Source: a virus (Duplodnaviria; Caudoviricetes). Taken from it: a DNA stretch of 64,000 nt. Location of the stretch: IMG/VR virus record IMGVR_UViG_3300020477_000013, positions 96,001 to 160,000 of that record, one strand, 5' to 3'. Shown piece after piece: positions 28,716-62,652 of the stretch. Numbering within the stretch: the stretch's first letter is position 1; the number at the start of each line of letters is the position of its first letter. The notes below the pieces were generated by a model. That model saw only the letters and a program-made list of their open reading frames with translations, did no database searches and was not told where the DNA came from. A program made the position numbers and the translations under genes.

Positions 28716-29036
28716 ATGATTTTCAATGCAGATCGGCTTCAAGTTTTATCGGGAATTAAGAACAACAGTAGTGGGGGAAATTTATTAAATGAGTCTTCTA
28801 CACGTAGTCGAAATCAGCTAGTCGAGCAAAAGATTCGACAGATCATCAGGGAAGAGATTAAGTCTTATCTCAATGAGCGCCAGTCAAAGGCCGCCTCCGT
28901 TGGATTTAAGAAGAATAATCTTACTGCTGCGATGGGCTTCGCCGGGCCCGGCTTCCAACCTAGGAATGAGCCGAACAGGTCTGTATCCAGAGGTCCTGGC
29001 GGTACACTTGGCTTTGGCGGGCCAGGATTTATGTAG
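28716..29036 (+). CDS. Small protein carrying both helical tag types
   Basis: DRLQVLSGIK, LLNE, KIRQIIREE. Confidence 0.7.
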   Translation: MIFNADRLQVLSGIKNNSSGGNLLNESSTRSRNQLVEQKIRQIIREEIKSYLNERQSKAASVGFKKNNLTAAMGFAGPGFQPRNEPNRSVSRGPGGTLGFGGPGFM

Positions 29037-49816: not shown

Positions 49817-50191
49817 ATGACGACGGGGAGTCGAGGCGTGGAATATACGAAGCACTTGCTTAAGGTTCTGATAGGTGAAATGATAGAGGCTAGAGACCCG
49901 TTAACGGTACCAGGTCCTGCTATGTGGCGTGCACAAGCCCAGAAAAGAAAAGATGCAGAGGCCGAAGCAGAAGAGAAGAAGAAAAAGCGAACACCTAAGT
50001 CCTCTACAGGTCATGAATACTCACCAGCCAGCGGGTTTGTTGACTACTATGGCGACACCAATGATGCATCATTTATGGATGATTACGGTTACTATGGGTA
50101 CCCAGAGGTGGGTGACTATGACGACTATGACGACTATGACGACTATGACGACTATGATGGTGGTTATGATATAGGTGAAGGCGATTACTAG
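49817..50191 (+). CDS. Hypothetical protein with Asp/Tyr-rich tail
   Basis: KHLLKVLIGEMIE helix; (DYD)5 tail. Confidence 0.65.
   Translation: MTTGSRGVEYTKHLLKVLIGEMIEARDPLTVPGPAMWRAQAQKRKDAEAEAEEKKKKRTPKSSTGHEYSPASGFVDYYGDTNDASFMDDYGYYGYPEVGDYDDYDDYDDYDDYDGGYDIGEGDY
50114..50158 (+). repeat. 9-bp tandem repeat GACTATGAC x5
   Basis: Four perfect units plus GACTATGAT. Confidence 0.9.
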
Positions 50192-50371: not shown

Positions 50372-50527
50372 ATGTCTGACACAGTAGTTGCATCATTAAT
50401 AATTTTAGGATTCACTGTCACGGGTATATTTTTAGGTGCATGGTTTGCCGCACGGGGGTTCGAGAAATCGCTTATTCAAATGATGGATGATCCTGATGCA
50501 CCGTGGAACAAGGAGGATGAAGAGTGA
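50372..50527 (+). CDS. 51-aa single-TM protein (not in ORF track)
   Basis: MSDTVVASLIILGFTVTGIFLGAWFAA...; GTGA overlap with next gene. Confidence 0.6.
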   Translation: MSDTVVASLIILGFTVTGIFLGAWFAARGFEKSLIQMMDDPDAPWNKEDEE

Positions 50528-50898
50528 GAATTACAAAGAAGCAGCTAAGGCAAGTCATTCGTGAAGCAGTCGAAGAAAATGAGCTGCTCGGCCTTACGGG
50601 CCCATGGCATGAAGTCGTAGCTGCATACATAGCTCGTGGTCCCGGTAATGGGAGTCAGTCTGCAACAAATATGGTGCTTAATAAGTTACACATGGGCCCG
50701 GATCTATGGCGTATGCAAGAGGATGTTTTAGAGGACATGCTTATTGAGCTTGGGCCAAATGCCACCCCTGAACAAATTGATGCGGTGAGTATTGAATTTC
50801 GCGATGGCGTTCGTGCCAATAAGTGGATGCCTCAAACCAAGGAAGAAATGGAGGCTGATTGGGCCCGCGGCGGAAAGCCTCGTGCGGATTACAGTTAG
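50524..50898 (+). CDS. Leader-family protein 1
   Basis: GTG start; MRITKKQLRQVIREAVEE. Confidence 0.8.
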   Translation: MRITKKQLRQVIREAVEENELLGLTGPWHEVVAAYIARGPGNGSQSATNMVLNKLHMGPDLWRMQEDVLEDMLIELGPNATPEQIDAVSIEFRDGVRANKWMPQTKEEMEADWARGGKPRADYS

Positions 50899-50906
50899 GG
50901 TGTTAG

Positions 50907-51152
50907 ATGAAAATTACACGTAGCCAACTTAGAAGAATCATCCGAGAAGCGATATTGCTAGAAGACAAAGAGGGAAAAGGAAAATGCCCTGATGATGGTT
51001 GTGTTCAAAAGCGCTCGAAGGGCTGGGTTATTATCTCTAACAAGACCGGAGAATGCTGGGGCAGAAGTAAGAAGCAGGGAGGCGAGTGTACATATTATGG
51101 CTCAAGGGAAAAAGCTGAAGCAGCGCTTGGCGCTTATCATGCAGGTGGGTAA
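50907..51152 (+). CDS. Leader-family protein 2 (Cys-containing cargo)
   Basis: MKITRSQLRRIIREAILLE. Confidence 0.8.
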   Translation: MKITRSQLRRIIREAILLEDKEGKGKCPDDGCVQKRSKGWVIISNKTGECWGRSKKQGGECTYYGSREKAEAALGAYHAGG

Positions 51153-51401
51153 ATGAAGATGTCTGGCAAACAGTTGAGAAAGATTATTCGAGAGACGTTA
51201 TCATTGGACCTTGAGGTTGGTGACGTAATTCTAACAGGCCGATTCAAGAATAAGCGCACTGTCGTTAGGGAACTAGGGACTGATGATCTAGGTCAACCAA
51301 CCGTTAACGGGATGAAGGTCTTATCTTTTCGCATTGAAAAACTGATGCCAAAAAGTAAGTGGAGTAAGAAGACACTGGAAGAGATAGGGGAAGACGAATG
51401 A
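51153..51401 (+). CDS. Leader-family protein 3 (KOW/SH3-like cargo)
   Basis: MKMSGKQLRKIIRE; VGDVILTGRFKNK. Confidence 0.8.
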   Translation: MKMSGKQLRKIIRETLSLDLEVGDVILTGRFKNKRTVVRELGTDDLGQPTVNGMKVLSFRIEKLMPKSKWSKKTLEEIGEDE

Positions 51402-51685
51402 GAATAGGGTTATCAAATTTGAGAATGTTGATTAGAGAGGCATTGGAGGTGTCTGATGAAGAGATTAGGGCATTTCTTTCTGACCAGGCTGCAACTTACC
51501 ATCAGGACCACAGTCTAGACATTGATGGTGATGAAATTCCGGATGCATCCGCTATTCGTGAACTACTGCAGGCCGATTTTCTAAATAACTTTAGTCATAT
51601 CTCAATTAGCGATTATGCTGATCTTATTGACAGGTTATCTGTGATGCCTGACGTCAAGTGGTCACGCCCTGTGATGATGGTGTAG
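51398..51685 (+). CDS. Leader-family protein 4
   Basis: MRIGLSNLRMLIREALE. Confidence 0.75.
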   Translation: MRIGLSNLRMLIREALEVSDEEIRAFLSDQAATYHQDHSLDIDGDEIPDASAIRELLQADFLNNFSHISISDYADLIDRLSVMPDVKWSRPVMMV

Positions 51686-51692
51686 GTTATAG

Positions 51693-51989
51693 ATGTGGCC
51701 GAAGGGGTATCAACTTAAATGGTTTCGAAGGGAACTTCCAAGAAAAGAAGGTCCTGCCCCGCCTATGAGACCCGGTTTCGGCCAAACACCCCTTAACGTA
51801 ATACAGGATGGTGATAAATTTTACGTTGGGACCTACTTTGTTTTACCTGATGGGTCTAGGAAACCATATACAGTTGAGAGTCAATATTTCTCCACGGAGA
51901 AAGAAGCCAAAGTTGTATTGTCAAGAATGACAGGCGGAAAAATGAAGGAGTCACTACTGCGTGCTTATGTAAGAGAGATGCTGGGCTAA
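51693..51989 (+). CDS. Hypothetical protein with C-terminal tag
   Basis: Ends MKESLLRAYVREMLG. Confidence 0.7.
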   Translation: MWPKGYQLKWFRRELPRKEGPAPPMRPGFGQTPLNVIQDGDKFYVGTYFVLPDGSRKPYTVESQYFSTEKEAKVVLSRMTGGKMKESLLRAYVREMLG

Positions 51990-53147
51990 ATGAGTAATGA
52001 TAAAATATCTGCATTTTACATAATGACAGAACCTGAGAAGATGGGTTACCCATATATTGAATCGATCACCTCTGTGCTGTCTTTTGCCGACGAGGTGGTT
52101 CTGGTGATGGGTAGAGATGAACCGGCTAGCGAGAAAAAGATTGACCAGTTGGCACGTTCTATTCCTCGGCAAAAGTCAGTTAAAATAGTGAAGACCCATG
52201 CTTGGCCAGAATTCGGATGGAACTATAATATAATGAGAGATCATATTCAACGCGGTTTGGACGAGTGTACACATGACTTATGTTTAAAGGTGGATTGTGA
52301 CTATGTCTTTAGAGATCAGCATTGTGATGAGATCCGTTCAGCAATTCAAATTCATGCACAGGATAATCATTTAGTAACCTTTGGCAGGGTCAATTTTTCA
52401 TGTTTAGGAAAAGCAGATTATCAACCAGCGATAGATCACACGCCTTGTTACGTTATTAATAAACGTGCATTGAGAGATGATGGCATAGAGTGTGCTATAT
52501 CCAATGAGTCGGGATCGAACCAACCTATTTTCATGAAAGACGAAAGGGTCCTAGATGTGTCTTCCGGTAAGGACCTCAAGGTGCTACCCCTAAGTCCTAT
52601 GTTACCAGATAGCCTAGAATCCTGGGTTTATCATTACCTTGTGATATGTCCAGTAAATTATTCATACACTTTCATGACTGCATCAAGAATTGCTAAGACG
52701 TGGTCTGAGTGGCATAGGGCTATACATCTCAGGTTTGGTAATCTCCGCATGCCGAATTTCGATTTAGATGATATGCATCAATCAATCAAGAATTTTGCGG
52801 CTTATCATTTCCAAGCAAAGATTCCATCCCTGGGGCATTGTAGAGACTGGGATGAAATAAGGGGTATTATTTTAGGCTCCAGCGGTGATACTTTAGCGGA
52901 TATGGTCAACAGGGGTATTTTACATTGTAATGACAGAGGTGAACCCCAGGTGTCAGGGGCCATGACAATGCAACTTGTAGACCACCCTGCATGTATGAGA
53001 CATGTATTACAGGGCATTTCATCCGACAAGTGGGGATTTAATAACTTTAACCTGCCTGAACCTCCCTCGAGGGGATTAACGCATGAAGGTGCGGCTGCCA
53101 TATATGAGAAGTGGTTAGGGGATATTGGTAGTTACTTGAATGAATAA
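51990..53147 (+). CDS. GT-A (family 2-like) glycosyltransferase
   Basis: GYPYIESITSVLSFADEVVLV; LKVDCDYVF (DxD). Confidence 0.7.
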   Translation: MSNDKISAFYIMTEPEKMGYPYIESITSVLSFADEVVLVMGRDEPASEKKIDQLARSIPRQKSVKIVKTHAWPEFGWNYNIMRDHIQRGLDECTHDLCLKVDCDYVFRDQHCDEIRSAIQIHAQDNHLVTFGRVNFSCLGKADYQPAIDHTPCYVINKRALRDDGIECAISNESGSNQPIFMKDERVLDVSSGKDLKVLPLSPMLPDSLESWVYHYLVICPVNYSYTFMTASRIAKTWSEWHRAIHLRFGNLRMPNFDLDDMHQSIKNFAAYHFQAKIPSLGHCRDWDEIRGIILGSSGDTLADMVNRGILHCNDRGEPQVSGAMTMQLVDHPACMRHVLQGISSDKWGFNNFNLPEPPSRGLTHEGAAAIYEKWLGDIGSYLNE

Positions 53148-53269
53148 ATAAACCCCCCCGCAACAACCGGGATTTTAATTCATTTTTAAGTGTCCCTTAT
53201 CGGTTGCATGTGATATTTATTTGCAGAATTGAATTATGGTATTCATATGATATCATCTAGGGGTTTAAA

Positions 53270-53377
53270 ATGAGTGAATTTTTATGGGGCTTTGTTGCGG
53301 GTGCGGTTGCTTCTCCTTTTGCATGGGAAGGCCTTAAGTGGTGCTTCCGAAAGGTGAAGGAAGCCACTAGTAAATAA
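53270..53377 (+). CDS. 35-aa membrane peptide (not in ORF track)
   Basis: SD AGGGG; MSEFLWGFVAGAVASPFAWEGLKWCFRKVKEATSK. Confidence 0.5.
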   Translation: MSEFLWGFVAGAVASPFAWEGLKWCFRKVKEATSK

Positions 53378-53443
53378 GTGGTATTATATTAAAATTTGCG
53401 TTAGCGTGGGATAATTGGTCTGGGCCCACGAGGGGAAAATAAA

Positions 53444-53704
53444 ATGAGACTATCAAAAAATCAATTAAGACAAATCATTCGAGAATCGCATAGTGAGTCG
53501 ATGTCGGGTGTGAATAGTCAGGTTAGAGAGTCACTCAGCTCTCACGAAGAAAAAGCTCAGGCGGACTCCTTCGCCATGTTTCCCGGTAACACTATCATGG
53601 ACTTGGAATCACTTCACGACTTGTGGTATGGTCGCTTTACAAGTGATGAAAACTTGATACTTGACCAGGCAATTGCACTTTTGAACAGGGAGCTCAGGGG
53701 GTAA
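53444..53704 (+). CDS. Leader-family protein 5
   Basis: MRLSKNQLRQIIRES. Confidence 0.8.
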   Translation: MRLSKNQLRQIIRESHSESMSGVNSQVRESLSSHEEKAQADSFAMFPGNTIMDLESLHDLWYGRFTSDENLILDQAIALLNRELRG

Positions 53705-53706
53705 TA

Positions 53707-53988
53707 ATGCAAATATCACGTAAGAAGTTAAGAAGAATCATTAGGGAATCGTTGCTTCAAGAGTACGGTCCTGAATCTCGTGGGGAGCCCGGGCACAGAG
53801 GTGCAGATGGAAACTGGGTCGATCCTGGCATGGATGGTTACAATCCATACAAGGACAAGTCTCTGGCACCTGGTAACGGTTGGCCCCCTGAAGAGAGATC
53901 GGCAGCTATTAGAGCGTATACAGGCAGAGATGGTTACATTGCCAACTCTCAAGTGGACAAAAGCTGGGTGCATCCAGCATTTCGATAA
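53707..53988 (+). CDS. Leader-family protein 6
   Basis: MQISRKKLRRIIRESLLQE. Confidence 0.8.
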   Translation: MQISRKKLRRIIRESLLQEYGPESRGEPGHRGADGNWVDPGMDGYNPYKDKSLAPGNGWPPEERSAAIRAYTGRDGYIANSQVDKSWVHPAFR

Positions 53989-53999
53989 GAGATAAACTA

Positions 54000-54362
54000 G
54001 TGAAAATCACAAAACGACAACTCAGACGAATTATTCGGGAATCAATCACGGGCACGACAATTTATGTCGAGAAGAGTCCATACGGTGGGACTATGATTGA
54101 AGATGAGAATGGCGAATATCTTTCTGTGGGAGAGATGGTAAAATCCTTATTAGACTCAGGTGAATCAGACTTCTTTCACGATGCTTTAGGGCTACAGGAA
54201 CTCATGGCAGCCCATAGCCGTGGTGTTCAGGGTGGTATGCAGAAGTGGGACTCTGATGTGTTCGAACAATACTACAGCCTAGACATGGATAAAATGATTG
54301 ACACATATGCCGGTGCTAATGGATTACAAGTCAAATACATCCCCATGGGAGAGGATTACTAA
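54000..54362 (+). CDS. Leader-family protein 7
   Basis: GTG start; MKITKRQLRRIIRES. Confidence 0.8.
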   Translation: MKITKRQLRRIIRESITGTTIYVEKSPYGGTMIEDENGEYLSVGEMVKSLLDSGESDFFHDALGLQELMAAHSRGVQGGMQKWDSDVFEQYYSLDMDKMIDTYAGANGLQVKYIPMGEDY

Positions 54363-54363
54363 A

Positions 54364-54633
54364 ATGAAGATCACAAAAAGACAACTTAGAAGAATCATCA
54401 AGGAAGAGAAAGCGAGGCTTCTTATAGAAATGAATCCCGCTGTTGAGGAGGGAATCTCACGTGGCGTGCAGAATGGCATTTGGGGCTGGCTCGAGCGCGA
54501 GTTTGCCCAAGACATGACCGGTGAAGATGTGTGGAATAATCCTACATACACCGAGAGTATTGCACACGCATTGGAAACAATTGCCAAGGAAGTACGGACC
54601 GCAGGGACGCAAGAAGGTACGTACGGGGGGTAA
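54364..54633 (+). CDS. Leader-family protein 8 (true start 54364)
   Basis: MKITKRQLRRIIKEEKARLLIE. Confidence 0.85.
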   Translation: MKITKRQLRRIIKEEKARLLIEMNPAVEEGISRGVQNGIWGWLEREFAQDMTGEDVWNNPTYTESIAHALETIAKEVRTAGTQEGTYGG

Positions 54634-54634
54634 A

Positions 54635-54922
54635 ATGAAGATCACAAAAAGACAGCTCAGACGAATTATCAAAGAACAACTTCAACTTCTTAGTGAGGAG
54701 GGCTATGATAGTTATCGTGATAGTAGGCGAGAGGCTGGCTATGGTGGAACAACTTGGAAGAGTAAGCAAGACTATAGGCGTCGAAGAGCCCAACAGATAA
54801 AGTATGCAGAGGAAGTCACAGCCCAGGGAAGAGAAGATGCCCTTGCCGGCCGGCCTAAAGACGCTAGCATAGGGCACCTTGCGTACCATGAGGCATACGA
54901 CGAAGCGCTCAAGGAAGCATGA
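54635..54922 (+). CDS. Leader-family protein 9 (true start 54635)
   Basis: MKITKRQLRRIIKEQLQLLSE. Confidence 0.85.
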   Translation: MKITKRQLRRIIKEQLQLLSEEGYDSYRDSRREAGYGGTTWKSKQDYRRRRAQQIKYAEEVTAQGREDALAGRPKDASIGHLAYHEAYDEALKEA

Positions 54923-54923
54923 T

Positions 54924-55259
54924 ATGAAGATCACAAAGAGACAACTCAGAAGAATCATCAAGGAAGAGCTTCAATCCATGACAGTTGACAAGCGAGATCA
55001 GCTTATGGATGCGCTGGAAGATAAATACGGACTCCAGGTAAGAACTACCGAAGAGTTTGGTTCTGGTCCTGGGGGCGTATGGATTGCTGCTGAGTCAGCT
55101 TCCGCACAAACGCCGGACGGCTTACCACTGTTTGACTACTACTTGGACATGGATCCATATGAATTTGGTGTACACCCGGAATTTTCAAGGTTTATTGCAC
55201 CTTATGGTTTTTATGCAGAGTGGAATGATCCAGGAACATTAATGTTGTGGAGGGTGTAA
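54924..55259 (+). CDS. Leader-family protein 10 (true start 54924)
   Basis: MKITKRQLRRIIKEELQS; aromatic-rich globular cargo. Confidence 0.85.
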   Translation: MKITKRQLRRIIKEELQSMTVDKRDQLMDALEDKYGLQVRTTEEFGSGPGGVWIAAESASAQTPDGLPLFDYYLDMDPYEFGVHPEFSRFIAPYGFYAEWNDPGTLMLWRV

Positions 55260-55260
55260 C

Positions 55261-55608
55261 ATGAGAATCACAAAGAGGCAGCTAAGAAGAATTATTAAGG
55301 AAGAAAAGGCGAAGCTGATAAGAGAGTCATTTTCGCCTGATTCTATCGCTGAGTTTGATAGGGAAATTAATTCCAATCTGGAACAGGGGAAGTTGTACCT
55401 TGACATGGGTGATACTTCGATGGCTCAGATGTACGATGATGATGCATATTCTTTAGAGGCCATTAGAGATATGGCCATTCAAGACAGGGCAGCTGGTGAG
55501 CCTATGGGATCAAATTCACTTCGTAATTTGGTTAGCCGTTTAGACACAGCCGCACGTGAAAAGATACCAGACGACTTCTATTACTGGATAATCGGCGAGG
55601 ATTATTAA
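55261..55608 (+). CDS. Leader-family protein 11
   Basis: MRITKRQLRRIIKEEKAKLIRE. Confidence 0.85.
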   Translation: MRITKRQLRRIIKEEKAKLIRESFSPDSIAEFDREINSNLEQGKLYLDMGDTSMAQMYDDDAYSLEAIRDMAIQDRAAGEPMGSNSLRNLVSRLDTAAREKIPDDFYYWIIGEDY

Positions 55609-55609
55609 A

Positions 55610-56068
55610 ATGAGAATCACAAAGAGGCAGCTAAGAAGAATCATTAGGGAAGCTTATTATGAAGATGCCGAAGACCGAGGATATTTTGACCATGTTGGTG
55701 GTCTCAACGCTCCTAAGCATCCTGATAATGAAGAGTATATGGCTGGGTGGGATCAATCCATCATAGATGATAAGGTCTCCGCGGACCACAAGGCAGAGAA
55801 GGAGATGGAAAGAAGGCTCCAGCCAGCACGCGATAGAACAATGGCAACACTCGATAGATCACGTCAGGAACTGGAGAGTGCCCATGGAATCACTGACGAC
55901 TTGGCCTACGAAGTTGAGATGGGAAGTCTCTTTCTGGCTAAGGAAGATGAGCTCCGTAAGCTGGCCAATGCAAGTGGTGCCCAAGGCCTAGCCGCTAAAA
56001 AGTTATTGGACATGACCCCCCAGCAACGTGCTGCATATAAAAGTTTAATGATTAGGACAACGATGTAG
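55610..56068 (+). CDS. Leader-family protein 12
   Basis: MRITKRQLRRIIREA. Confidence 0.85.
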   Translation: MRITKRQLRRIIREAYYEDAEDRGYFDHVGGLNAPKHPDNEEYMAGWDQSIIDDKVSADHKAEKEMERRLQPARDRTMATLDRSRQELESAHGITDDLAYEVEMGSLFLAKEDELRKLANASGAQGLAAKKLLDMTPQQRAAYKSLMIRTTM

Positions 56069-56087
56069 GTCGTAAATAAGATATTAC

Positions 56088-56348
56088 ATGAAAATCACTA
56101 AGAGACAACTAAGAAGAATCATCAAGGAAGAGAAGGCTAAGCTTCTTAATGAGTATACGCCTGCCGATACCAGCGGGTCAGCTCCTTATTCTAGCCCTGC
56201 AAACATTGAAGAAGAAATAGCAGAACTCGAAAATGCTCTTAACTCTCTATACGTCGCAGGCAGAGCACTTCCTTTTCCGATGGATAGAAGAATCATGGAT
56301 GCTACCGAGATGATCGAGAGGGCGCTCAATATATTACAAGGAAAGTAA
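56088..56348 (+). CDS. Leader-family protein 13
   Basis: MKITKRQLRRIIKEEKAKLLNE. Confidence 0.85.
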   Translation: MKITKRQLRRIIKEEKAKLLNEYTPADTSGSAPYSSPANIEEEIAELENALNSLYVAGRALPFPMDRRIMDATEMIERALNILQGK

Positions 56349-56349
56349 A

Positions 56350-56622
56350 ATGAAGATCACAAAGAGACAACTAAGAAGAATCATCAAAGAAGAGAAGGCC
56401 AGGCTCATGAATGAACAACCTACTCGCCGGCCTGACTATAAGTTTAATCAGGGCGTACAGGGTGAATATGCTCCCGGTGAATCAGTACTTGAGGATTTGA
56501 TGGTCGCGGTTGACGAAGCTATTGCCAACGCCACGGGTCAGATCGATCTAGATTTTCAAGATGGTCCGCTATCGTCTAGACAAGTTGTCAATTTTGTTAT
56601 TCGATCGTTACAGGAAAGATAA
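56350..56622 (+). CDS. Leader-family protein 14
   Basis: MKITKRQLRRIIKEEKARLMNE. Confidence 0.85.
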   Translation: MKITKRQLRRIIKEEKARLMNEQPTRRPDYKFNQGVQGEYAPGESVLEDLMVAVDEAIANATGQIDLDFQDGPLSSRQVVNFVIRSLQER

Positions 56623-56623
56623 A

Positions 56624-57013
56624 ATGAAAATCACCAAACGACAACTTAGAAGAATCATCAAAGAAGAGAAGGCCAGGCTCATGTCCGAAGCCGACACTGG
56701 AATGCGACCAGGGCCAGATGGCATTATCGTCGTCGATCGTGGAAATATGGGGAGAGAAAAAGATCGTTGGCTGGTACTGTTTGAGGTGGAAGATATTGTA
56801 TCCCCCGAGCTATACACTTATCTCTCGCAAAGAAGCGATTGGAGAAAACTAACATCTGGCCCTAAGGCAACAGGCCCGACCGAAGAGGCAGCCCGGGCCA
56901 AGCTCAACAAGGCTATTGATAAGTTTCTGGCAATGCTATCTCAGAAAATCATTGAAGCACGAAACGAGGTCGGCATGCTGGACGAATTCAGGGCAAGCTT
57001 GGAGAAACTATAA
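56624..57013 (+). CDS. Leader-family protein 15 (true start 56624)
   Basis: MKITKRQLRRIIKEEKARLMSE. Confidence 0.85.
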   Translation: MKITKRQLRRIIKEEKARLMSEADTGMRPGPDGIIVVDRGNMGREKDRWLVLFEVEDIVSPELYTYLSQRSDWRKLTSGPKATGPTEEAARAKLNKAIDKFLAMLSQKIIEARNEVGMLDEFRASLEKL

Positions 57014-57014
57014 A

Positions 57015-57299
57015 ATGAAAATCACAAAACGACAACTTCGAAGAATCATCAAAGAAGAGAAGGCCAGGCTTCTATCTGAGGTGACCCCCGGTGAACGTGA
57101 TGATGCTAAGAGGCTTGATGCAGAGTGGGCAGCAAGGGTAAATGCAGAGCAAGGTGCCCTCCAATCTCAAGCTGATATCTCACGTGAGTTAGGCGAATTA
57201 CATAATGCTATCGATCGATTGATTGACGTGATGGGCCGTGATGAAGTAGCCGCTGAGCTTGAGGGAATCGCAGAAGAGATTAGGATGGGAATGGTATGA
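57015..57299 (+). CDS. Leader-family protein 16 (true start 57015)
   Basis: MKITKRQLRRIIKEEKARLLSE. Confidence 0.85.
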   Translation: MKITKRQLRRIIKEEKARLLSEVTPGERDDAKRLDAEWAARVNAEQGALQSQADISRELGELHNAIDRLIDVMGRDEVAAELEGIAEEIRMGMV

Positions 57300-58951
57300 A
57301 AATCACAAAAAGACAACTCAGGCGAATCATCAAAGAAGAGAAGGCCAGGCTCATGGAGTATGGTGGCCGACCTTATGACCCAACTGTTCCTGGAGACTAC
57401 GAGCGATATCGTGATAATCCGACCGGCGACGCGCCTCCGGGTGGCGAGTGGGATGCAAAACTGGAGAAGATGGCCGATGAAGTCGGTGATCGAGCCGCCG
57501 GTGGATACGAACCATCGATGGACGGTTCTCCTGAAGCGTATGCTGACCATATCCTTGATTGGTATGCTGAAGACCCACCACCTCCGCTCGACGAGATGGA
57601 GGGTTTAGCGTTTGCACTGTCAAAGCCCTATTATAGAAAGGTGATTAAGGCCGCGGTTCTCGAGTACATCGGAATGATGACAGAAGGAAGGGCTTTACAT
57701 GAGCAATACCATTCCATGTCACCAGCCGGCAAATCCTTGTCTAGATCGATTAAAGGTAAATTCATGAGGATGTACCCCGACGCCTCGGTCGGGATTGACG
57801 GTCGTGAAGGGTGGATCACAGTCAATGGTAAAAAGGCTATCAATATGTCCCAGGCTAGCGGACGCGGAATGTCAGATGAAGAAATGATAGACAAGATGCA
57901 TGCAGTATATGCCCAGTCACAAGTAGATCCCGATATCCCAACCGCCGACACGAGAATGGATACGTTTATGGAGGGAAAAATGAAAATCTCAAAACGACAA
58001 CTCAGGCGAATCATCAAAGAAGAGAAGTCGAGGGTTTTATCTGAGCGCCGAATGCAAATTGCACCACGACGAAGGCGTAGCGTTCTGTTGACAGAGCGTA
58101 GTTTACGTTACGTAGCACGCCAGGCTATCATCGATCACAACCGAGGTGTTCGAATTGATGAGAATTGGTTTAGTGACGTAGCAAAGAAGGCCAAGGCCTT
58201 TGTCGCCGATAAAGTGGAAGACGCCCAGATAATGTTTAATGACTTCAAGAAGAAGCTCCCGGGTGGTATGGCAAAGCACATATCTAAGGCGTACAAGAAA
58301 ATGATCAGAGATGTCAAAGAGATGACAGACAAGGTCGATTTTGGGCTATACGATTTGAAAGCTATCGAATGGCAGCCAGATTCCATGGAGGAGGCACTAG
58401 AGAACGGCAAGATCGTCAAGAAGTTCTTTGATGACTTTAACATCGACATGGACATCAACGATCTAATGGGTCAAGAGAATTTTGACGCTGATACCGAGTA
58501 TGATCTCAATCAAAAATTTAAGAAATCCCTAAGGGATGTTATGCAACGAACAGAGTTTTACGTGTTCACTGATACTGAGATTGAGAAAACTAAAAAGAAG
58601 ATTGTCGACGCCCTAGGGGAAAAGAAAGGAAAGGCAGTTGCTGAAGAGATGGCAGAAGAGCTAGTTGCAACAATGAAAGAGTACGAAGAAGACGTGCTTA
58701 GTCGCGATTATGCTGATGAAATATCGCTGGCAGTCCGTGGGTATGCCAAGTCCTTAGCCTATGCTGCTGAGCAAGAGTGGGCAAAGAAGATGGATGAGAA
58801 AGAGCGTCGATTAGCTGGCCTAGAGCGTATGAAGATAGCTGATGCCAACGAAAAAGCAGCTTGGAAGAAGGAGGAGCGACGAAAAGATCGCGCCGCTAAG
58901 AAGAAGTACAGCACTGAGCCGGAGGACCGGACAAGGTCTAAGTGGAGCTAA
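57296..58951 (+). CDS. Leader-family protein 17 (551 aa) with a second in-frame leader at 57980
   Basis: MKITKRQLRRIIKEEKARLME; internal MKISKRQLRRIIKEEKSRVLSE. Confidence 0.85.
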   Translation: MKITKRQLRRIIKEEKARLMEYGGRPYDPTVPGDYERYRDNPTGDAPPGGEWDAKLEKMADEVGDRAAGGYEPSMDGSPEAYADHILDWYAEDPPPPLDEMEGLAFALSKPYYRKVIKAAVLEYIGMMTEGRALHEQYHSMSPAGKSLSRSIKGKFMRMYPDASVGIDGREGWITVNGKKAINMSQASGRGMSDEEMIDKMHAVYAQSQVDPDIPTADTRMDTFMEGKMKISKRQLRRIIKEEKSRVLSERRMQIAPRRRRSVLLTERSLRYVARQAIIDHNRGVRIDENWFSDVAKKAKAFVADKVEDAQIMFNDFKKKLPGGMAKHISKAYKKMIRDVKEMTDKVDFGLYDLKAIEWQPDSMEEALENGKIVKKFFDDFNIDMDINDLMGQENFDADTEYDLNQKFKKSLRDVMQRTEFYVFTDTEIEKTKKKIVDALGEKKGKAVAEEMAEELVATMKEYEEDVLSRDYADEISLAVRGYAKSLAYAAEQEWAKKMDEKERRLAGLERMKIADANEKAAWKKEERRKDRAAKKKYSTEPEDRTRSKWS

Positions 58952-58955
58952 AACA

Positions 58956-59219
58956 ATGAAAATCACCAAACGACAACTTAGAAGAATCATCAAAGAAGAG
59001 AAGGCACGAATCCTTAGGGAGATCCGAGATGAACGATCTCCCCAGGGCCGCCAATCTGCTCGTGGTCCCGCTAGCGCCTATGATCAGGGATATGAAGCAG
59101 GCACAAGGGGCGATCGATCTGAAATGCCACTCGAGCAATACGGTACACCTTTCTACGATGCATGGATGGAAGGCTGGGATGACGGACTAGCTTCATTCCA
59201 TGGTGGCGGAAGCTACTAA
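58956..59219 (+). CDS. Leader-family protein 18 (true start 58956)
   Basis: MKITKRQLRRIIKEEKARILRE. Confidence 0.85.
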   Translation: MKITKRQLRRIIKEEKARILREIRDERSPQGRQSARGPASAYDQGYEAGTRGDRSEMPLEQYGTPFYDAWMEGWDDGLASFHGGGSY

Positions 59220-59266
59220 ACGAAACAGGCAATTTTAGCCAACAATATTATAAAGGAGAAATTACA

Positions 59267-59365
59267 ATGAGAAAAGTATTACATAGATTAGTAAATTTAT
59301 TCAATAACTCACACTGCTGCTGCTGCTGTGGTTGCTGTCCTCACCCTGAGAAGTCTTGCTGTTAG
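59267..59365 (+). CDS. 32-aa Cys-rich micropeptide (not in ORF track)
   Basis: SD AAGGAG; MRKVLHRLVNLFNNSHCCCCCGCCPHPEKSCC. Confidence 0.65.
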   Translation: MRKVLHRLVNLFNNSHCCCCCGCCPHPEKSCC

Positions 59366-59376
59366 GGGTACATGAT

Positions 59377-59631
59377 ATGAGAGTCACTAAGCGGCAACTA
59401 AGGCAAATCATTAGAGAAGCTCTTGAAACCGAAATGGAAGAGGGGGATGTACTTGGTGAGGAAGACCTTGAGGAGTACTGGACACCCGGCATAGATACTT
59501 CAGGCCGGGTAGATACCAGCAGGGCAGACAAAAAGCCTACAGGCCAGGAAATGGGTTGCAAAGATCGAAGGACCGGGAAGACTGTTGAGCCGTATTGGCA
59601 ACAGAGAATGGGAAAATGGGTGTGCCCATAA
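59377..59631 (+). CDS. Leader-family protein 19 (true start 59377)
   Basis: MRVTKRQLRQIIREALE. Confidence 0.85.
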   Translation: MRVTKRQLRQIIREALETEMEEGDVLGEEDLEEYWTPGIDTSGRVDTSRADKKPTGQEMGCKDRRTGKTVEPYWQQRMGKWVCP

Positions 59632-59894
59632 TGAAAATTACAAAAAGACAATTAAGAAGAATCATCAAAGAAGAGAAAGCCAAGCTCGTCTCCGAGATAT
59701 CGGCTGAACGGGGTGCTAGCCTGCCTCGTACCCATATGGGCGAGACAATCACACCAGAGAGCGTCGTTGCCGACCTGTTTAATTTAGCAGCTAAGGTAGA
59801 AGCTTTAGGTGAAGATTTCTTTTCTGACAGCGACAGCTTAGCTGATTGGGCGAATAATTTTATGTCCAGACATAACGTTATGCAGGAGAGATAA
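59631..59894 (+). CDS. Leader-family protein 20 (true start 59631)
   Basis: MKITKRQLRRIIKEEKAKLVSE. Confidence 0.85.
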   Translation: MKITKRQLRRIIKEEKAKLVSEISAERGASLPRTHMGETITPESVVADLFNLAAKVEALGEDFFSDSDSLADWANNFMSRHNVMQER

Positions 59895-59901
59895 CATTAA
59901 A

Positions 59902-60150
59902 ATGAAAATCACGAAGCGACAACTCAGAAGAATCATCAAGGAAGAGAGGGCCAGGTTACTTAATGAAGGGCCTAACCTAGCGCTTCGTAATGCGATCATG
60001 GATACTTACGAGGGCGTGTATGGAGATCTAATCTCACAAGGTGCCGATCCATCGGTTGCACAAGATCGAGCTAGTGATGCAGTTATGTCAGAGGTTGAAG
60101 CCTGGTTGGATGCCGTAGGAATTCCACGCACATATGTGGGATTATCATAA
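59902..60150 (+). CDS. Leader-family protein 21
   Basis: MKITKRQLRRIIKEERARLLNE. Confidence 0.85.
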   Translation: MKITKRQLRRIIKEERARLLNEGPNLALRNAIMDTYEGVYGDLISQGADPSVAQDRASDAVMSEVEAWLDAVGIPRTYVGLS

Positions 60151-60401
60151 TGAAAATCGCCAAACGTCAGCTAAGAAGAATCATCAAAGAAGAGAAAGCA
60201 CGATTGTTGACAGAGGATAGCATTAATGCTGCAGAAGATCGACTTTTCGCCGCTATAGATGACTTTGTACAAGTGGTAGATGAGGAACTAGGGTACGATG
60301 TTCCACTTCACGTGTTACGGCGGCAGGTTGATGATGTAGTTGGCTCAGCTTTTGCACAGTTTGAAGCGGACCAAAAAGCAGAGGATGACTTAAGATCATG
60401 A
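60150..60401 (+). CDS. Leader-family protein 22
   Basis: MKIAKRQLRRIIKEEKARLLTE. Confidence 0.85.
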   Translation: MKIAKRQLRRIIKEEKARLLTEDSINAAEDRLFAAIDDFVQVVDEELGYDVPLHVLRRQVDDVVGSAFAQFEADQKAEDDLRS

Positions 60402-60760
60402 GAATCACAAAACGACAACTCAGACGAATCATTAAAGAAGCCATGGAAGATGAGCCCATCCGCATGATACCAGGTGATTCATTCCCTGCAGATGCGCTTA
60501 AATCAAGGCGCTCCAGGAAACCCCAACCCTCCGGCGAATTCAGAGACACAATCGTTATGAGTCCAACCGGCGATACTCTCCTAGTCGGTGGGCAGGAAGT
60601 GGCTCTTCAAAATGCTGTAAAAGAACTCGAGATACAGTCAGGTCAGCCAGTGTCGGCCATACAAGCAGGTGATATCAACGCGAAGCTATTAAGACAGTAT
60701 GGTCAAGGATACGTTGAGCTTCCAATATCTTGGTCGCCCAATACAGGATGGAAATTCTAA
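60398..60760 (+). CDS. Leader-family protein 23
   Basis: MRITKRQLRRIIKEAME. Confidence 0.85.
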   Translation: MRITKRQLRRIIKEAMEDEPIRMIPGDSFPADALKSRRSRKPQPSGEFRDTIVMSPTGDTLLVGGQEVALQNAVKELEIQSGQPVSAIQAGDINAKLLRQYGQGYVELPISWSPNTGWKF

Positions 60761-61017
60761 TGAAAATCACGAAAAGACAGTTAAAGCAGATCATCAAAGA
60801 AGAGAAGGCAAAGCTCAATGAAGGTGGATGGAGTAAGGGTCCAGAGCGCCTTAGGGAGATTAGGGAAGGAATGCTAGAGGCCTTATTCCAGTCCATCGAT
60901 GCTCAAGCCTCTTATGATCCAGAAGCCCTGGGAATTATTAAGTCTGAAATAATGATGCGAGGCCTAGATTTTAGAAAAGAGGCACTGGCTTACTTACGAG
61001 AACTAGAGGGTTATTAA
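60760..61017 (+). CDS. Leader-family protein 24 (true start 60760)
   Basis: MKITKRQLKQIIKEEKAKLNE. Confidence 0.85.
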   Translation: MKITKRQLKQIIKEEKAKLNEGGWSKGPERLREIREGMLEALFQSIDAQASYDPEALGIIKSEIMMRGLDFRKEALAYLRELEGY

Positions 61018-61018
61018 A

Positions 61019-61333
61019 ATGAAAATTACAAAGAGACAGCTTAGAAGAATCATCAAGGAAGAGAAAGCCCGGCTTGTAAATGAGATCCAGGCTGAGAAAG
61101 ACGTCAGGCAGCTGACCCTTAATCAAGGTGAGGTTGATAAGGTTGAGGCCATGCGATCAGCACTGGATAGAATGTTCTTTGAGTATCGAAAAATAAATTC
61201 AATACCCCCACAATGGCTTGATGACTCCAACGGGTTCGGTACATCCAGGTATGATAAACTAGAAGAACTGTTGATGGATGCAGGCGAAGAAATGTCAGAC
61301 TTGGTACATGATATGAAGAAAGTGGGAATATAA
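61019..61333 (+). CDS. Leader-family protein 25
   Basis: MKITKRQLRRIIKEEKARLVNE. Confidence 0.85.
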   Translation: MKITKRQLRRIIKEEKARLVNEIQAEKDVRQLTLNQGEVDKVEAMRSALDRMFFEYRKINSIPPQWLDDSNGFGTSRYDKLEELLMDAGEEMSDLVHDMKKVGI

Positions 61334-61413
61334 GACTCAGAGTGAGGTTCAAAGGTTGAACCTCGTATCATTAACAAAAAATTATCTATATTAAAAAATG
61401 GGAGGCACCTAAA

Positions 61414-61995
61414 ATGATAGTTACAAAGAGACAATTGAGAAGAATAATCAAGGAAGAAGCACGCCGTCTAATGGAGGACAGCATTGACAGTGAGCTTGAT
61501 CACCTTAAGAAAAATGTGCATGATGATATTGAGCACATTCGTGATCTAAAAGATGACATTAGGGATGATCATGAAGAAGAGCTTCGTGCGGAGAAGGCAC
61601 GCAAGGATGAGTCGCGCCGGAGGACAAAGTCTAAGCTACGCAGGATTGTTCGTCGTACTATCAACGAAGAGCATGCAGACTGGGGCATGGGAAAAGATGA
61701 AGATTCACGTACACACCATGGCGAAAAAGATTATACAGGCCATAAGGGTGATCATTCAAAGACTCATCCAGGTGAATTAGACTATGAAGATGATGCAGCT
61801 GGAAGAGCACATGATGCAATTGCTGCTATTCATGACCTGGCATCTGCAGCAGGCGTTGAGCTTGATGTTACGGCCGGGGATGCTCTTGACAGTGAGGATG
61901 CAACGATCATCGCTATGGAAGGCAGGCTCCGCCGACAGGCACTAAAGAAGCGTATTAAAAGATTGACGAGGGATGCGATCCGCCGAGGACTATAA
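61414..61995 (+). CDS. Leader-family protein 26 (His/Asp-rich)
   Basis: MIVTKRQLRRIIKEEARRLME; internal KLRRIVRRTINE; C-terminal LKKRIKRLTRDAIRR. Confidence 0.85.
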   Translation: MIVTKRQLRRIIKEEARRLMEDSIDSELDHLKKNVHDDIEHIRDLKDDIRDDHEEELRAEKARKDESRRRTKSKLRRIVRRTINEEHADWGMGKDEDSRTHHGEKDYTGHKGDHSKTHPGELDYEDDAAGRAHDAIAAIHDLASAAGVELDVTAGDALDSEDATIIAMEGRLRRQALKKRIKRLTRDAIRRGL

Positions 61996-61996
61996 G

Positions 61997-62239
61997 ATGA
62001 AAATCTCAAAACGACAACTAAGAAGAATTATCAAAGAAGAGAAGGCCAAGTTACTAAAAGAGGCACCGACTCCTGAATTTGGTATATTCGATCAGTATTA
62101 CCTAGCTGATCTACTGATGGAAGAGGTCGAAAGTTTTATGGACCAGACAGGGGTGGATAGCTTCGGGCCGGCCGAGGTCGAGGATATGCGTAATGCAGTC
62201 ATGGCGGCACTTGATACGATTGTGAAACAGGTGAGCTAA
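61997..62239 (+). CDS. Leader-family protein 27 (true start 61997)
   Basis: MKISKRQLRRIIKEEKAKLLKE. Confidence 0.85.
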   Translation: MKISKRQLRRIIKEEKAKLLKEAPTPEFGIFDQYYLADLLMEEVESFMDQTGVDSFGPAEVEDMRNAVMAALDTIVKQVS

Positions 62240-62259
62240 ACCTAAGTGAGGTTAAAATT

Positions 62260-62652
62260 ATGAGAATTTCAAAACAACAATTAAGAAGAATCATCAAAGA
62301 AGAGCGCATGCGAATTCTTTATGAGGAAGTTGAAGAGATGGAGATCAAGGTAGACACTAATGAACACCACTGGCCTCGTGTAGAGTGGTCGAACATTGGT
62401 GAGCTTACCGATAAGTGGGCAGACCAAGAGAGAAATGCTTGGGATAAAGGTGATACGTCTATGCTTCCGGAGAAGCCGGAAGACGTCAGCATATCCGCAT
62501 GGGAAGCAGAGCATAAGGCTGCTTGGGAAGACCAGGTAGAAAATGCTGCATTAGATTTAGAGGCGGAGTTAACCACACGGATCCGCAGGCTAGCTCTTAA
62601 AACGATGCAGGAATTTACTGATTCGCTGATAGCGGGTGATTATTCTGCCTAG
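62260..62652 (+). CDS. Leader-family protein 28
   Basis: MRISKQQLRRIIKEERMRILYE. Confidence 0.85.
   Translation: MRISKQQLRRIIKEERMRILYEEVEEMEIKVDTNEHHWPRVEWSNIGELTDKWADQERNAWDKGDTSMLPEKPEDVSISAWEAEHKAAWEDQVENAALDLEAELTTRIRRLALKTMQEFTDSLIAGDYSA

What the first reader, a model, noticed from the sequence alone, without database searches (positions are those of the whole stretch)
50524..62340. Leaders end in a hydrophobic-x-Glu site matching prohead-protease specificity
After IIKEE most copies continue to LLIE, LLSE, LIRE, LLNE, LMNE, LMSE, LME, VLSE, ILRE, LVSE, LLTE, LNE, LVNE, LLKE or ILYE, and similarity stops right after that Glu. T4 gp21 cleaves after (I/L)-x-E and phiKZ gp175 also cleaves after Glu. 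The conservation boundary therefore coincides with a predicted processing site.
Basis: partly seen in the sequence, partly recalled or inferred. Interest (0 to 1): 0.75.

Follow-up and report, generated by a model that had tools for sequence, protein, structure and literature searches.

The report
Protease-cut address tag on phage cargo
Thirty neighbouring genes of an uncultured marine T4-type giant phage start with the same short peptide, which ends exactly at the motif cut by the phage's own T4-type head protease. The tag is therefore most likely a removable "load into the capsid" label like that of T4's internal proteins, used here on a far larger scale; neither cutting nor packaging has been measured.

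Summary
All 30 leader copies in the window (35 in the 201.6-kb contig) carry Ile12-x-Glu14. Nineteen of the 29 in the given range carry a second hydrophobic-x-Glu ending at residue 21/22. Conservation falls to background right after it.

The reading is supported indirectly:
- The genome encodes a T4 gp21-type (Peptidase_S77) protease with its His, Ser and Asp kept.
- The capsid protein keeps L-[RK]-E near the T4 gp23 cut site in about 50 relatives.
- [LI]-x-E is most enriched in the genes flanking the protease, as in T4 gp22/67/68.
- The leader is profile-homologous to the N-terminus of the gene just after the protease.
- In natural fusion proteins a further hydrophobic-x-Glu, followed by a small residue, sits just before internal leaders. 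A DNA-level control rules out a ribosome-binding-site artefact.
- Asp was not seen at residue 14 (Glu in 354 of 355 leaders).

Cleavage and packaging remain untested.

This is a new variant of the T4 capsid-targeting-sequence system. The scan already noted this tag system elsewhere on this genome (e1-5388760, -769, -770, -771), and T4-style tags on other DNA (e.g. e1-3420087, e1-1088340).

The parts
50524..50565 (+). leader, short form (14 codons, GTG start), ends V-I-R-E|A; gene 50524-50898
50907..50948 (+). leader, short form, ends I-I-R-E|A; gene to 51152
51153..51194 (+). leader, short form, ends I-I-R-E|T; gene to 51401
51398..51439 (+). leader, diverged short form, ends L-I-R-E|A; gene to 51685
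53444..53485 (+). leader, short form, ends I-I-R-E|S; gene to 53704
53707..53748 (+). leader, short form, ends I-I-R-E|S (then L-Q-E at 19); gene to 53988
54000..54041 (+). leader, short form (GTG start), ends I-I-R-E|S; gene to 54362
54364..54429 (+). leader, long form (22 codons), second site L-L-I-E|M; gene to 54633
54635..54697 (+). leader, 21 codons, second site L-L-S-E|E; gene to 54922
54924..54965 (+). leader, only site I-I-K-E|E; gene to 55259
55261..55326 (+). leader, long form, second site L-I-R-E|S; gene to 55608
55610..55651 (+). leader, short form, ends I-I-R-E|A; gene to 56068
56088..56153 (+). leader, long form, second site L-L-N-E|Y. In the model it is helix 5-22, followed by a disordered linker 23-36; gene to 56348
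56350..56415 (+). leader, long form, L-M-N-E|Q; gene to 56622
56624..56689 (+). leader, long form, L-M-S-E|A; gene to 57013
57015..57080 (+). leader, long form, L-L-S-E|V; gene to 57299
57296..57358 (+). leader, 21 codons, R-L-M-E|Y; first module of the 551-aa fusion ORF 57296-58951
57965..57973 (+). junction site F-M-E|G-K just before the internal leader of the fusion ORF
57980..58045 (+). internal leader of the fusion ORF, V-L-S-E|R; second module runs to 58951
58956..59021 (+). leader, long form, I-L-R-E|I; gene to 59219
59377..59418 (+). leader, short form I-I-R-E|A (also M-E-E at 22); gene to 59631
59631..59696 (+). leader, long form, L-V-S-E|I; gene to 59894
59902..59967 (+). leader, long form, L-L-N-E|G; gene to 60150
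60150..60215 (+). leader, long form, L-L-T-E|D; gene to 60401
60398..60439 (+). leader, short form I-I-K-E|A; gene to 60760
60760..60822 (+). leader, 21 codons, K-L-N-E|G; gene to 61017
61019..61084 (+). leader, long form, L-V-N-E|I; gene to 61333
61414..61476 (+). leader, 21 codons, R-L-M-E|D; gene to 61995
61997..62062 (+). leader, long form, L-L-K-E|A; gene to 62239
62260..62325 (+). leader, long form, I-L-Y-E|E; gene to 62652

Best explanation
The shared N-terminus is a removable propeptide that works like the T4 capsid-targeting sequence.

Inferred mechanism:
1. A basic amphipathic helix (residues about 5-22) docks the new protein onto the scaffolding core of the prohead.
2. When the gp21-type (S77) head protease is activated, it cuts after Glu in hydrophobic-x-Glu. 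It cuts at I-[KR]-E14 in the short-form copies (followed by Ala/Ser/Thr) and at L-x-E21/22 in the long-form copies, possibly at both.
3. This frees unrelated, mostly acidic orphan proteins, which stay in the head and probably leave with the DNA.
4. In fusion genes such as 57296-58951, a further hydrophobic-x-Glu-small site just before the internal tag lets the same protease cut the modules apart.

Shown here: the motif and its exact coincidence with the conservation boundary; selection acting on the peptide; the presence of an intact-looking S77 protease; the head-module kinship of the tag.

Inferred only: cleavage, the site actually used, docking to the core, packaging, and injection.
For: 1. 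Motif and boundary.
- I12 and E14 are present in 35/35 genomic copies, and information drops after residue 22.
- In 223 non-redundant public leaders the motif ends at 14 in 223 and at 21/22 in 124, against 1-8 at any other position.

2. The constraint is on the peptide.
- Synonymous codons vary freely; Leu8 uses CTA 12, CTT 8, CTC 7, TTA 5, TTG 3.
- With leaders anchored on residues 1-11 only, residue 14 is Glu in 354/355 and never Asp, and residue 12 is I/V/L/M in 354/355. In T4, Asp at P1 blocks processing (PMC9026906).

3. Protease.
- PF03420 at 92 bits (cut-off 27) inside a T4-order head module: terminase, portal, protease, scaffold-like gene, gp23-like capsid protein.
- It aligns to T4 gp21 (5JBL) with His (GECDHP), Ser (GISSRG) and Asp (CWDF) kept.

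4. Specificity is probably retained.
- The capsid protein has Q-[VLI]-L-[RK]-E followed by a variable linker in about 50 distinct orthologues. This lies 5 residues from the position aligned with the T4 gp23 Glu65|Ala66 cut.
- Among 237 genes, [LI]-x-E enrichment ranks first for the 297-aa gene just before the protease (15 observed, 5.4 expected, z 4.7).
- It ranks third for the 140-aa gene just after the protease (z 3.9), fifth for the 597-aa scaffold-like gene and seventh for the protease itself. [LI]-x-D is not enriched in any of them.
- Their site densities of 2.9-5.1 per 100 aa match T4 gp21/22/67/68 at 3.3-6.0.

5. Head kinship of the tag.
- hhalign of the leader profile against the N-terminus of the 140-aa head-module protein family gives probability 92% and E 7e-7. 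Leader Glu14 and Glu22 align with that family's invariant Glu15 and Glu23.

6. Fusion junctions.
- In 103 non-redundant junctions before internal leaders, P3 of the nearest Glu is L/I/M/F/V in 60% (baseline 20%, p 8e-19). P1' is G/S/N/A in 86% (baseline 24%).
- In 233 unfused junctions read in the same frame, the figures are 11% and 22%. The ribosome-binding site therefore does not explain the motif.

7. Covariation.
- When the second site is present, residue 15 is Glu in 119/121 leaders. When it is absent, residue 15 is mostly Ala, Ser or Thr, the small P1' seen in T4 (Fisher p 3e-26).

8. Structure.
- The AF2 model has helix 5-22 ending at Glu22, then a low-confidence linker 23-36, then the cargo hairpin.

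9. Second tag.
- A second, unrelated tag in the same genome also ends L-L-x-E or L-L-E.
Against: - No measurement of cleavage, packaging or injection exists for this phage or any relative I could find.
- [LI]-x-E is not depleted inside the cargo parts (38 observed, 35.6 expected), so the motif alone cannot decide cutting. The same is true in T4.
- P1' after Glu14 is Glu in the long form, and one copy outside the window has Pro after Glu22. Both would be unusual for the T4 sites I checked.
- The cargo is mostly acidic (pI 4-5.5), unlike the basic T4 internal proteins.
- The tag has no sequence similarity to T4's MKTYQEFIAE.
- A Lys/Glu/Leu-rich helix has a raised chance of containing L-x-E.
- The copies are homologous, so the counts overstate independence.
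- The leader sets were picked by a profile that included residues 12-14.
- The genome also encodes a ClpP-family protease.
Confidence: 0.7

Rival explanations
1. The tag is a retained functional helix and is not removed. For example it could be a basic nucleic-acid-binding or oligomerising N-terminal helix shared by a family of small regulators. The Glu residues would then be structural (helix capping, salt bridges).
For: The tag is strongly basic (pI about 10.5-11.5) and is predicted to be one amphipathic helix. L-x-E is common in Lys/Glu/Leu helices. There is no depletion of [LI]-x-E in the cargo.
Against: - Asp was not seen in place of Glu14 in 355 leaders.
- Conservation stops exactly at Glu, and a flexible linker follows.
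- Fusion proteins carry an added hydrophobic-x-Glu-small motif before internal tags.
- The tag is homologous to the N-terminus of a head-module gene next to the protease.
- The cargoes are unrelated to each other.
Confidence: 0.12
2. The tag is a recognition sequence for some machinery other than the prohead. Candidates are the phage's own ClpP protease or DnaK/DnaJ/GroEL chaperones (as a degron or client tag), or a modifying enzyme as in RiPP-like shared leaders.
For: - The contig encodes ClpP, Hsp70, DnaJ and GroEL.
- A basic-flanked hydrophobic core resembles chaperone-binding peptides (from my own knowledge, not tested).
- An earlier scan note (e1-127136) found that a shared phage tag tracks a radical-SAM enzyme rather than the capsid.
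Against: - ClpP sits among replication and nucleotide-metabolism genes, not in the head module.
- No radical-SAM gene is present in the 201.6 kb held.
- None of these ideas explains the strict Glu, the boundary coincidence, the head-module homologue or the junction motif.
- The contig is only about 73% complete, so absence of a partner enzyme is weak evidence.
Confidence: 0.08
3. The conservation is mainly a nucleic-acid feature. The shared gene start would serve translation initiation or coupling, or act as a recombination site for cassette shuffling, and the peptide motif would be a by-product.
For: The genes are packed head to tail, often as TAA-A-ATG with the ribosome-binding site inside the previous gene. 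Leader DNA is similar enough between neighbours to recombine. Related phages have different cargo after the same tag.
Against: - Synonymous positions vary widely while the residues stay fixed.
- The tag is conserved as a peptide in 6,920 clusters at 50% identity.
- It is also conserved when it lies inside fusion proteins, far from a gene start.
- Recombination at the tag is likely real, but as a consequence, not the cause.
Confidence: 0.05

Closest known systems
T4 capsid-targeting sequence (CTS) on internal proteins IPII/IPIII (MKTYQEFIAE), IPI and Alt, removed by the gp21 prohead protease
   Same: - A short N-terminal peptide is shared by unrelated proteins and ends in I/L-x-Glu.
- The genome has a gp21-family protease in a T4-order head module.
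- Core proteins are rich in the same motif.
- Propeptide length is 14-22 residues here against 10-19 in T4.
- T4 data were checked on the record: ipII and ipIII both start MKTYQEFIAE|A, gp23 has L-T-E65|A, gp24 has L-R-E10|S (PMC9026906).
   Different: - There is no sequence similarity between the two tags.
- The tag here is basic and has two tiers, with two candidate sites.
- There are 35 copies of this tag per contig plus a second tag type, against a handful in T4.
- The cargo is mostly acidic orphans rather than basic DNA-associated proteins.
- Fusion proteins carry a site on both sides of the tag.
- The phage is far from T4: capsid protein identity is below 40% to T4-like phages, with a DnaE-type polymerase noted by an earlier finding.
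Inner-body and ejection proteins of phiKZ, 201phi2-1 and SPN3US, processed after Glu by gp175-type prohead proteases
   Same: Many head-internal proteins are trimmed after Glu by a diverged gp21 relative in a jumbo phage (PMC9026906, PMC5694885).
   Different: Those substrates do not share one conserved address tag. According to the review, their sites have extremely few determinants besides Glu. The protease here is a close S77 match, not the phiKZ type.
Encapsulin cargo-loading peptides
   Same: A short terminal peptide directs unrelated cargo into an HK97-fold shell. This is a functional likeness recalled from my own knowledge.
   Different: They are usually C-terminal, are not removed by a protease, and no phage or protease is involved. 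Not tested here.
Shared leader on phage RB43-type proteins linked to a radical-SAM enzyme (earlier scan note e1-127136)
   Same: One N-terminal tag heads many unrelated phage proteins.
   Different: That tag co-occurs with a radical-SAM/SPASM enzyme. None is found on this contig, and the tag here is tied to the head module instead.

Membership tests
Peptidase_S77 (T4 gp21-type prohead protease) | Match to PF03420 above the curated cut-off | tested here: met
   92.3 bits against a cut-off of 27, E 2.9e-27, at G000:C1:30362-30787; PHROG head maturation protease at 1.2e-50
Peptidase_S77 (T4 gp21-type prohead protease) | Catalytic His and Ser (and the third Asp) conserved | tested here: met
   Alignment to 5JBL: the query has GECDHP, GISSRG and CWDF at the aligned positions. 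The assignment of these as catalytic residues rests on my knowledge of gp21.
Peptidase_S77 (T4 gp21-type prohead protease) | Cleaves after Glu in L/I-x-E | tested here: inconclusive
   Indirect only: a conserved L-[RK]-E near the position of the gp23 site, and [LI]-x-E enrichment, without [LI]-x-D enrichment, in the flanking core-like genes. No biochemical test.
T4-type capsid-targeting sequence / internal-protein system | Short conserved N-terminal peptide on otherwise unrelated proteins | tested here: met
   35 copies; no BLASTP similarity between the cargo parts at E<0.01
T4-type capsid-targeting sequence / internal-protein system | Peptide ends in the head protease's motif, with Glu at P1 | tested here: met
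   I-[KR]-E14 in all copies; L-x-E at 21/22 in 19 of 29; Glu not Asp in 354/355
T4-type capsid-targeting sequence / internal-protein system | Sequence homology to the T4 CTS MKTYQEFIAE | tested here: not met
   By inspection the tag M-K-I-T-K-R-Q-L-R-R-I-I-K-E shows no similarity to the T4 CTS read from the T4 record. No alignment was run. Only the 597-aa scaffold-like protein starts like T4 gp22 (…A-I-A-E|A).
T4-type capsid-targeting sequence / internal-protein system | Tag is necessary and sufficient for packaging into the prohead, and is removed there | not testable with these tools
   Needs virion proteomics or reporter fusions
T4-type capsid-targeting sequence / internal-protein system | Mature cargo is small and basic (as in T4 IPs) | tested here: not met
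   The cargo pI is 4.1-5.6 in 26 of 35 copies

The most novel reading that the evidence does not exclude
The tag is an excisable, two-site address module bounded by head-protease sites on both sides. It lets this widespread marine phage clade load dozens of unrelated orphan proteins per genome, singly or as polyproteins, into the capsid and deliver them with the DNA. Thousands of such protein families exist in public data. That would be by far the largest known library of virion-delivered phage effectors. Many of them are small and acidic and might act against host defences.
Probability: 0.4. Interest if true: 0.8.

Novelty: new variant of a known kind. Interest (0 to 1): 0.6.

Why it matters
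If the tag is cut and loads cargo as predicted, a simple sequence rule (M-K-I-T-K-R-Q-L-R-R-I-I-K-E …L-x-E) identifies candidate head-packaged, probably injected proteins. The leader profile matched 6,920 protein clusters at 50% identity, nearly all without any known domain. That would give a functional handle on a large block of marine viral 'dark matter'.

It would also extend the T4 internal-protein paradigm, which was worked out on three or four proteins, to a system of dozens per genome. The predicted cut sites can be checked directly by N-terminal proteomics. A cultured relative, Flavobacterium phage immuto, carries two tag-like proteins and makes the test feasible. The tag might also serve as a packaging handle for engineering.

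Tried and rejected
- Complex prediction of the protease with residues 1-40 of the 56088 protein returned 'no answer' (score 0.00). It counts neither for nor against binding.
- Depletion of [LI]-x-E in the cargo parts, as a sign of exposure to the protease: none (38 observed against 35.6 expected). Uninformative, since T4 cargo also contains uncut motifs.
- The 'phages' collection gave no match by megablast of the GroEL gene or by tblastn of one tagged protein.
- Microcystis phage Mel-JY01 gave no match to the leader profile.
- No paper contains the tag strings. No proteomics paper on immuto or Mel-JY01 was found.
- Pfam on ten head-module or cargo proteins and on 148 multi-tag proteins gave almost nothing: a few EF-hand hits and three single-member hits.
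- Other prohead protease types: Peptidase_S78 and S49 are absent. ClpP is present but sits in a replication and nucleotide-metabolism context. It is rejected as the head protease on context only.
- A radical-SAM partner enzyme is absent from the contig.
- I first suspected that the E-[GSN]-K-Met pattern before internal tags was just the ribosome-binding site plus TAA read in frame. The control on 233 unfused junctions rejects this for the hydrophobic P3 and the small P1'. It may still contribute to the Glu itself, which appears in 28% of unfused junctions.


Full report
**Setting**

The window is bases 96001-160000 of a 201,585-bp IMG/VR virus contig (linear, CheckV 73% complete). All genes run on the + strand.

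The contig has a T4-order head module at 25-38 kb. In order it holds large terminase, gp20-type portal, a 297-aa gene, a gp21-type protease, genes of 140, 92, 170, 242, 208 and 74 aa, a 597-aa scaffold-like gene, and a gp23-type capsid protein.

The window itself holds a polymerase fragment, GroEL, a sigma factor, Hsp70, DnaJ, a GMP-reductase-like gene and three tRNAs. From 50524 onward it holds the gene array in question.

The nearest cultured relatives by capsid protein are Flavobacterium phage immuto (49% identity) and Microcystis phage Mel-JY01. T4-like cyanophages and coliphages are below 40%. The protease has 517 close relatives in IMG/VR, on contigs up to 293 kb.

**The observation**

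A motif scan finds 35 copies of the leader on the contig.

- Residues 1-14 read M-[KR]-I-[TS]-K-R-Q-L-R-R-I-I-[KR]-E. L8, I12 and E14 are invariant.
- Column information is 3-4.3 bits for positions 1-14, 1.2-2.6 bits for 15-22, and 0.85 bits or less from 23 on.

Two refinements:
1. I-[KR]-E14 is itself a hydrophobic-x-Glu site and is the only universal one.
2. The copies fall into two forms. The short form is II[R/K]E followed by Ala/Ser/Thr, with similarity ending there (about 12 copies). The long form is IIKE-E-[KR]-A-[RK]-L-[LMIV]-x-E (about 19 copies).

The cargo parts show no BLASTP similarity to each other. They are mostly acidic (pI 4.1-5.6 in 26 of 35 copies), while the tag has a pI near 11.

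**Beyond this genome**

A profile of the first 30 residues finds 6,920 clusters (50% identity) among 1.84 billion representatives at E<=0.001.

In 223 non-redundant leader instances taken from the top hits:
- hydrophobic-x-Glu ends at residue 14 in all 223;
- it ends at residue 21/22 in 124;
- it ends at any other single position in 1-8;
- information falls to 0.2-0.4 bits from residue 23.

With instances anchored only on residues 1-11, residue 14 is Glu in 354 of 355, with no Asp. Residue 12 is I/V/L/M in 354. These sets were selected with a profile that included those columns, so the test is partly circular.

Orthologues of one cargo (the 56088 gene) keep the tag almost unchanged while the cargo drifts to 56% identity. 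A variant with a five-residue deletion still reads L-Q-E.

**Peptide or nucleic acid?**

Synonymous positions in the tag vary freely among the 35 copies. For example, Leu8 uses five codons and Arg6 uses AGA/CGA/CGG/AGG. The tag is also conserved when it lies inside fusion proteins. Selection therefore acts on the peptide.

**The protease and its likely specificity**

The only head-module protease is Peptidase_S77 (PF03420, 92 bits). It aligns to T4 gp21 (5JBL), with His, Ser and Asp at the aligned positions. S78 and S49 types are absent. A ClpP homologue exists but lies among recA, dnaB, RNR and thyX.

The literature states that gp21 cuts after Glu in L/I-x-E, that IP propeptides are 10-19 residues long, and that residues 8 and 10 of the IPIII CTS govern processing. 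It also states that Asp at residue 10 blocks processing but not targeting, and that the phiKZ-type proteases also cut after Glu (PMC9026906). I verified the T4 sequences on the T4 record:
- ipII and ipIII start MKTYQEFIAE|A;
- gp23 has L-T-E65|A;
- gp24 has L-R-E10|S;
- gp22, gp67, gp68 and gp21 carry 3.3-6.0 [LI]-x-E per 100 residues.

Two indirect tests suggest the same specificity here.

1. The capsid protein has Q-V-L-R-E61|A62, five residues from the position aligned with the start of mature gp23. In about 50 distinct orthologues, Q-[VLI]-L-[RK]-E is conserved and is followed by a variable Gly-rich linker. Phage immuto has I-V-S-E|A there.

2. Among 237 called genes, [LI]-x-E enrichment over shuffles ranks as follows:

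| Rank | Gene | Observed / expected | z |
|---|---|---|---|
| 1 | 297-aa gene just upstream of the protease | 15 / 5.4 | 4.7 |
| 3 | 140-aa gene just downstream of the protease | 4 / 0.8 | 3.9 |
| 5 | 597-aa scaffold-like gene | 19 / 12.2 | 2.5 |
| 7 | the protease itself | 6 / 2.5 | 2.4 |

[LI]-x-D is not enriched in any of these.

**Link between the tag and the head**

The 140-aa gene next to the protease starts M-A-K-L-S-R-x-x-L-K-x-L-V-K-E-C-L-V-E-I-L-x-E|G in all relatives, then becomes variable.

Profile-profile comparison with the array's leader gives probability 92% and E 7e-7 over 24 columns. Leader Glu14 and Glu22 align with its invariant Glu15 and Glu23.

The next gene (92 aa) has a related …L-L-R-K-I-V-L-E-E-K-R-R-M-x-E segment. 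The 597-aa protein starts like T4 gp22 (…A-I-A-E|A).

**Fusion proteins**

The best profile hits are proteins with two or three tags. In 118 non-redundant junctions before an internal tag:
- 103 have a Glu 2-7 residues upstream, mostly at -3 or -4;
- its P3 is L/I/M/F/V in 60%, against 20% for other Glu residues in the same proteins (p 8e-19);
- its P1' is G/S/N/A in 86%, against 24%.

The window's own example is F-M-E|G-K-Met at 57965-57979.

The ribosome-binding site and the preceding TAA could produce E-G-K when read in frame, so I collected 282 junctions with DNA from 62 IMG/VR loci plus this contig.
- In 233 unfused junctions read in the tag's frame, Glu at -3/-4 occurs in 28%. Among those, P3 is hydrophobic in 11% and P1' is small in 22%.
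- In 16 fused junctions the figures are 62%, 60% and 90%.

The junction motif is thus a peptide-level feature. It is what one expects if the same protease separates the modules.

**Which Glu is cut?**

This is unknown. When the second site is present, residue 15 is Glu in 119 of 121 leaders. When it is absent, residue 15 is mostly Ala, Ser or Thr, the small P1' seen at the T4 sites I checked (Fisher p 3e-26). This suggests Glu14 is the working site in short-form tags and Glu21/22 in long-form tags.

The AF2 model of the 56088 protein has helix 5-22 ending at Glu22, a low-confidence linker 23-36, and a helical hairpin (mean pLDDT 75). That would leave Glu22 accessible.

**Against, or neutral**

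- [LI]-x-E is not depleted in the cargo.
- Some P1' residues are unusual: Glu after Glu14, and one Pro after Glu22 outside the window.
- The cargo is acidic, unlike T4 IPs.
- The complex prediction gave no answer.
- No Pfam families describe the cargo.
- No radical-SAM partner exists on the contig.

**Verdict**

The system works like the T4 CTS/internal-protein system and uses a gp21-family protease. However, the tag is not homologous to the T4 CTS, it has two tiers, it occurs about 35 times per contig, it also links polyprotein modules, and its cargo is acidic. It is a new variant of a known kind.

The scan had already described the tag system on other stretches of this genome (e1-5388760, -769, -770, -771). 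It had also described comparable T4-style tags on other genomes (e1-3420087, e1-1088340 and others).

What this report adds:
- the recognition that IIKE is the universal site;
- the genome-wide motif-enrichment test;
- the capsid-site conservation;
- the profile homology to the head-module protein;
- the junction motif with its DNA control;
- a cultured phage in which the prediction can be tested.

Noticed in passing
window 51990-53147: A 385-aa gene without the tag sits inside the array. ESM Atlas features (0.98) and structure (TM 0.56) point to a GT-A / family-2-like glycosyltransferase; Pfam finds nothing.
   Followed up: partly
window 51942-51989: The 98-aa ORF 51693-51989 ends M-K-E-S-L-L-R-A-Y-V-R-E-M-L-G-stop, directly abutting the ATG of the glycosyltransferase-like gene. 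This resembles the contig's second tag type (M-K-L-L-R-E-Y-I-R-x-L-L-x-E) and may be a stranded or decayed leader.
   Followed up: no
G000:C1:76083-76685 (outside the window): A ClpP-family protease gene (PF00574, 1e-30) lies among recA, a 5'-3' exonuclease, dnaB, RNR, an amidase and thyX. Together with GroEL, Hsp70 and DnaJ in the window, the phage carries a sizeable proteostasis set.
   Followed up: partly
G000:C1:82400-89200 (outside the window): A second tag type, M-[KN]-L-L-R-E-Y-I-R-x-L-L-x-E, occurs in seven copies. Several are internal to long ORFs, and they are intermixed with four copies of the first tag.
   Followed up: partly
G000:C1:177400-197400 (outside the window): About ten small (60-70 aa) genes start M-K-V-G-D-L-V-K. 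This looks like a separate paralogous family rather than a cleavable tag.
   Followed up: no
window 28716-29036 and 38164-38760: Two orphan genes (106 and 198 aa) rank 2nd and 4th in the genome for [LI]-x-E enrichment (z 4.2 and 3.7). They may be further protease substrates or core proteins encoded away from the head module.
   Followed up: no
window 49817-50191: A 124-aa ORF just before the array ends in a long Asp/Tyr repeat (…D-Y-D-D-Y-D-D-Y-D-D-Y-D-D-Y-D-G-G-Y…).
   Followed up: no
window 54340-54362, 55590-55608, 61000-61017: Several array genes end in G-E-D-Y or E-G-Y because the next gene's ribosome-binding site (GGAG/GAGG) lies in their last codons. Stop and start are arranged as TAA-A-ATG, which suggests translational coupling along the array.
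   Followed up: partly
public proteins P0025, P0037, P0042, P0053, P0065: Some metagenome proteins have two tags only 5-40 residues apart. In P0025 only Y-G-E-Y-K lies between them, and in P0042 a zinc-ribbon does. These look like cargo-less or mini-cargo units.
   Followed up: no
L091:1495-2253 and MW353176 near 81496: Cultured Flavobacterium phage immuto has two proteins with tag-like N-termini: M-K-K-S-Q-L-R-Q-I-I-K-E|A (252 aa) and M-K-L-D-L-L-K-K-L-I-K-E|A-V-K-E…I-L-S-E. The tag therefore predates the large arrays and can be tested in culture.
   Followed up: partly
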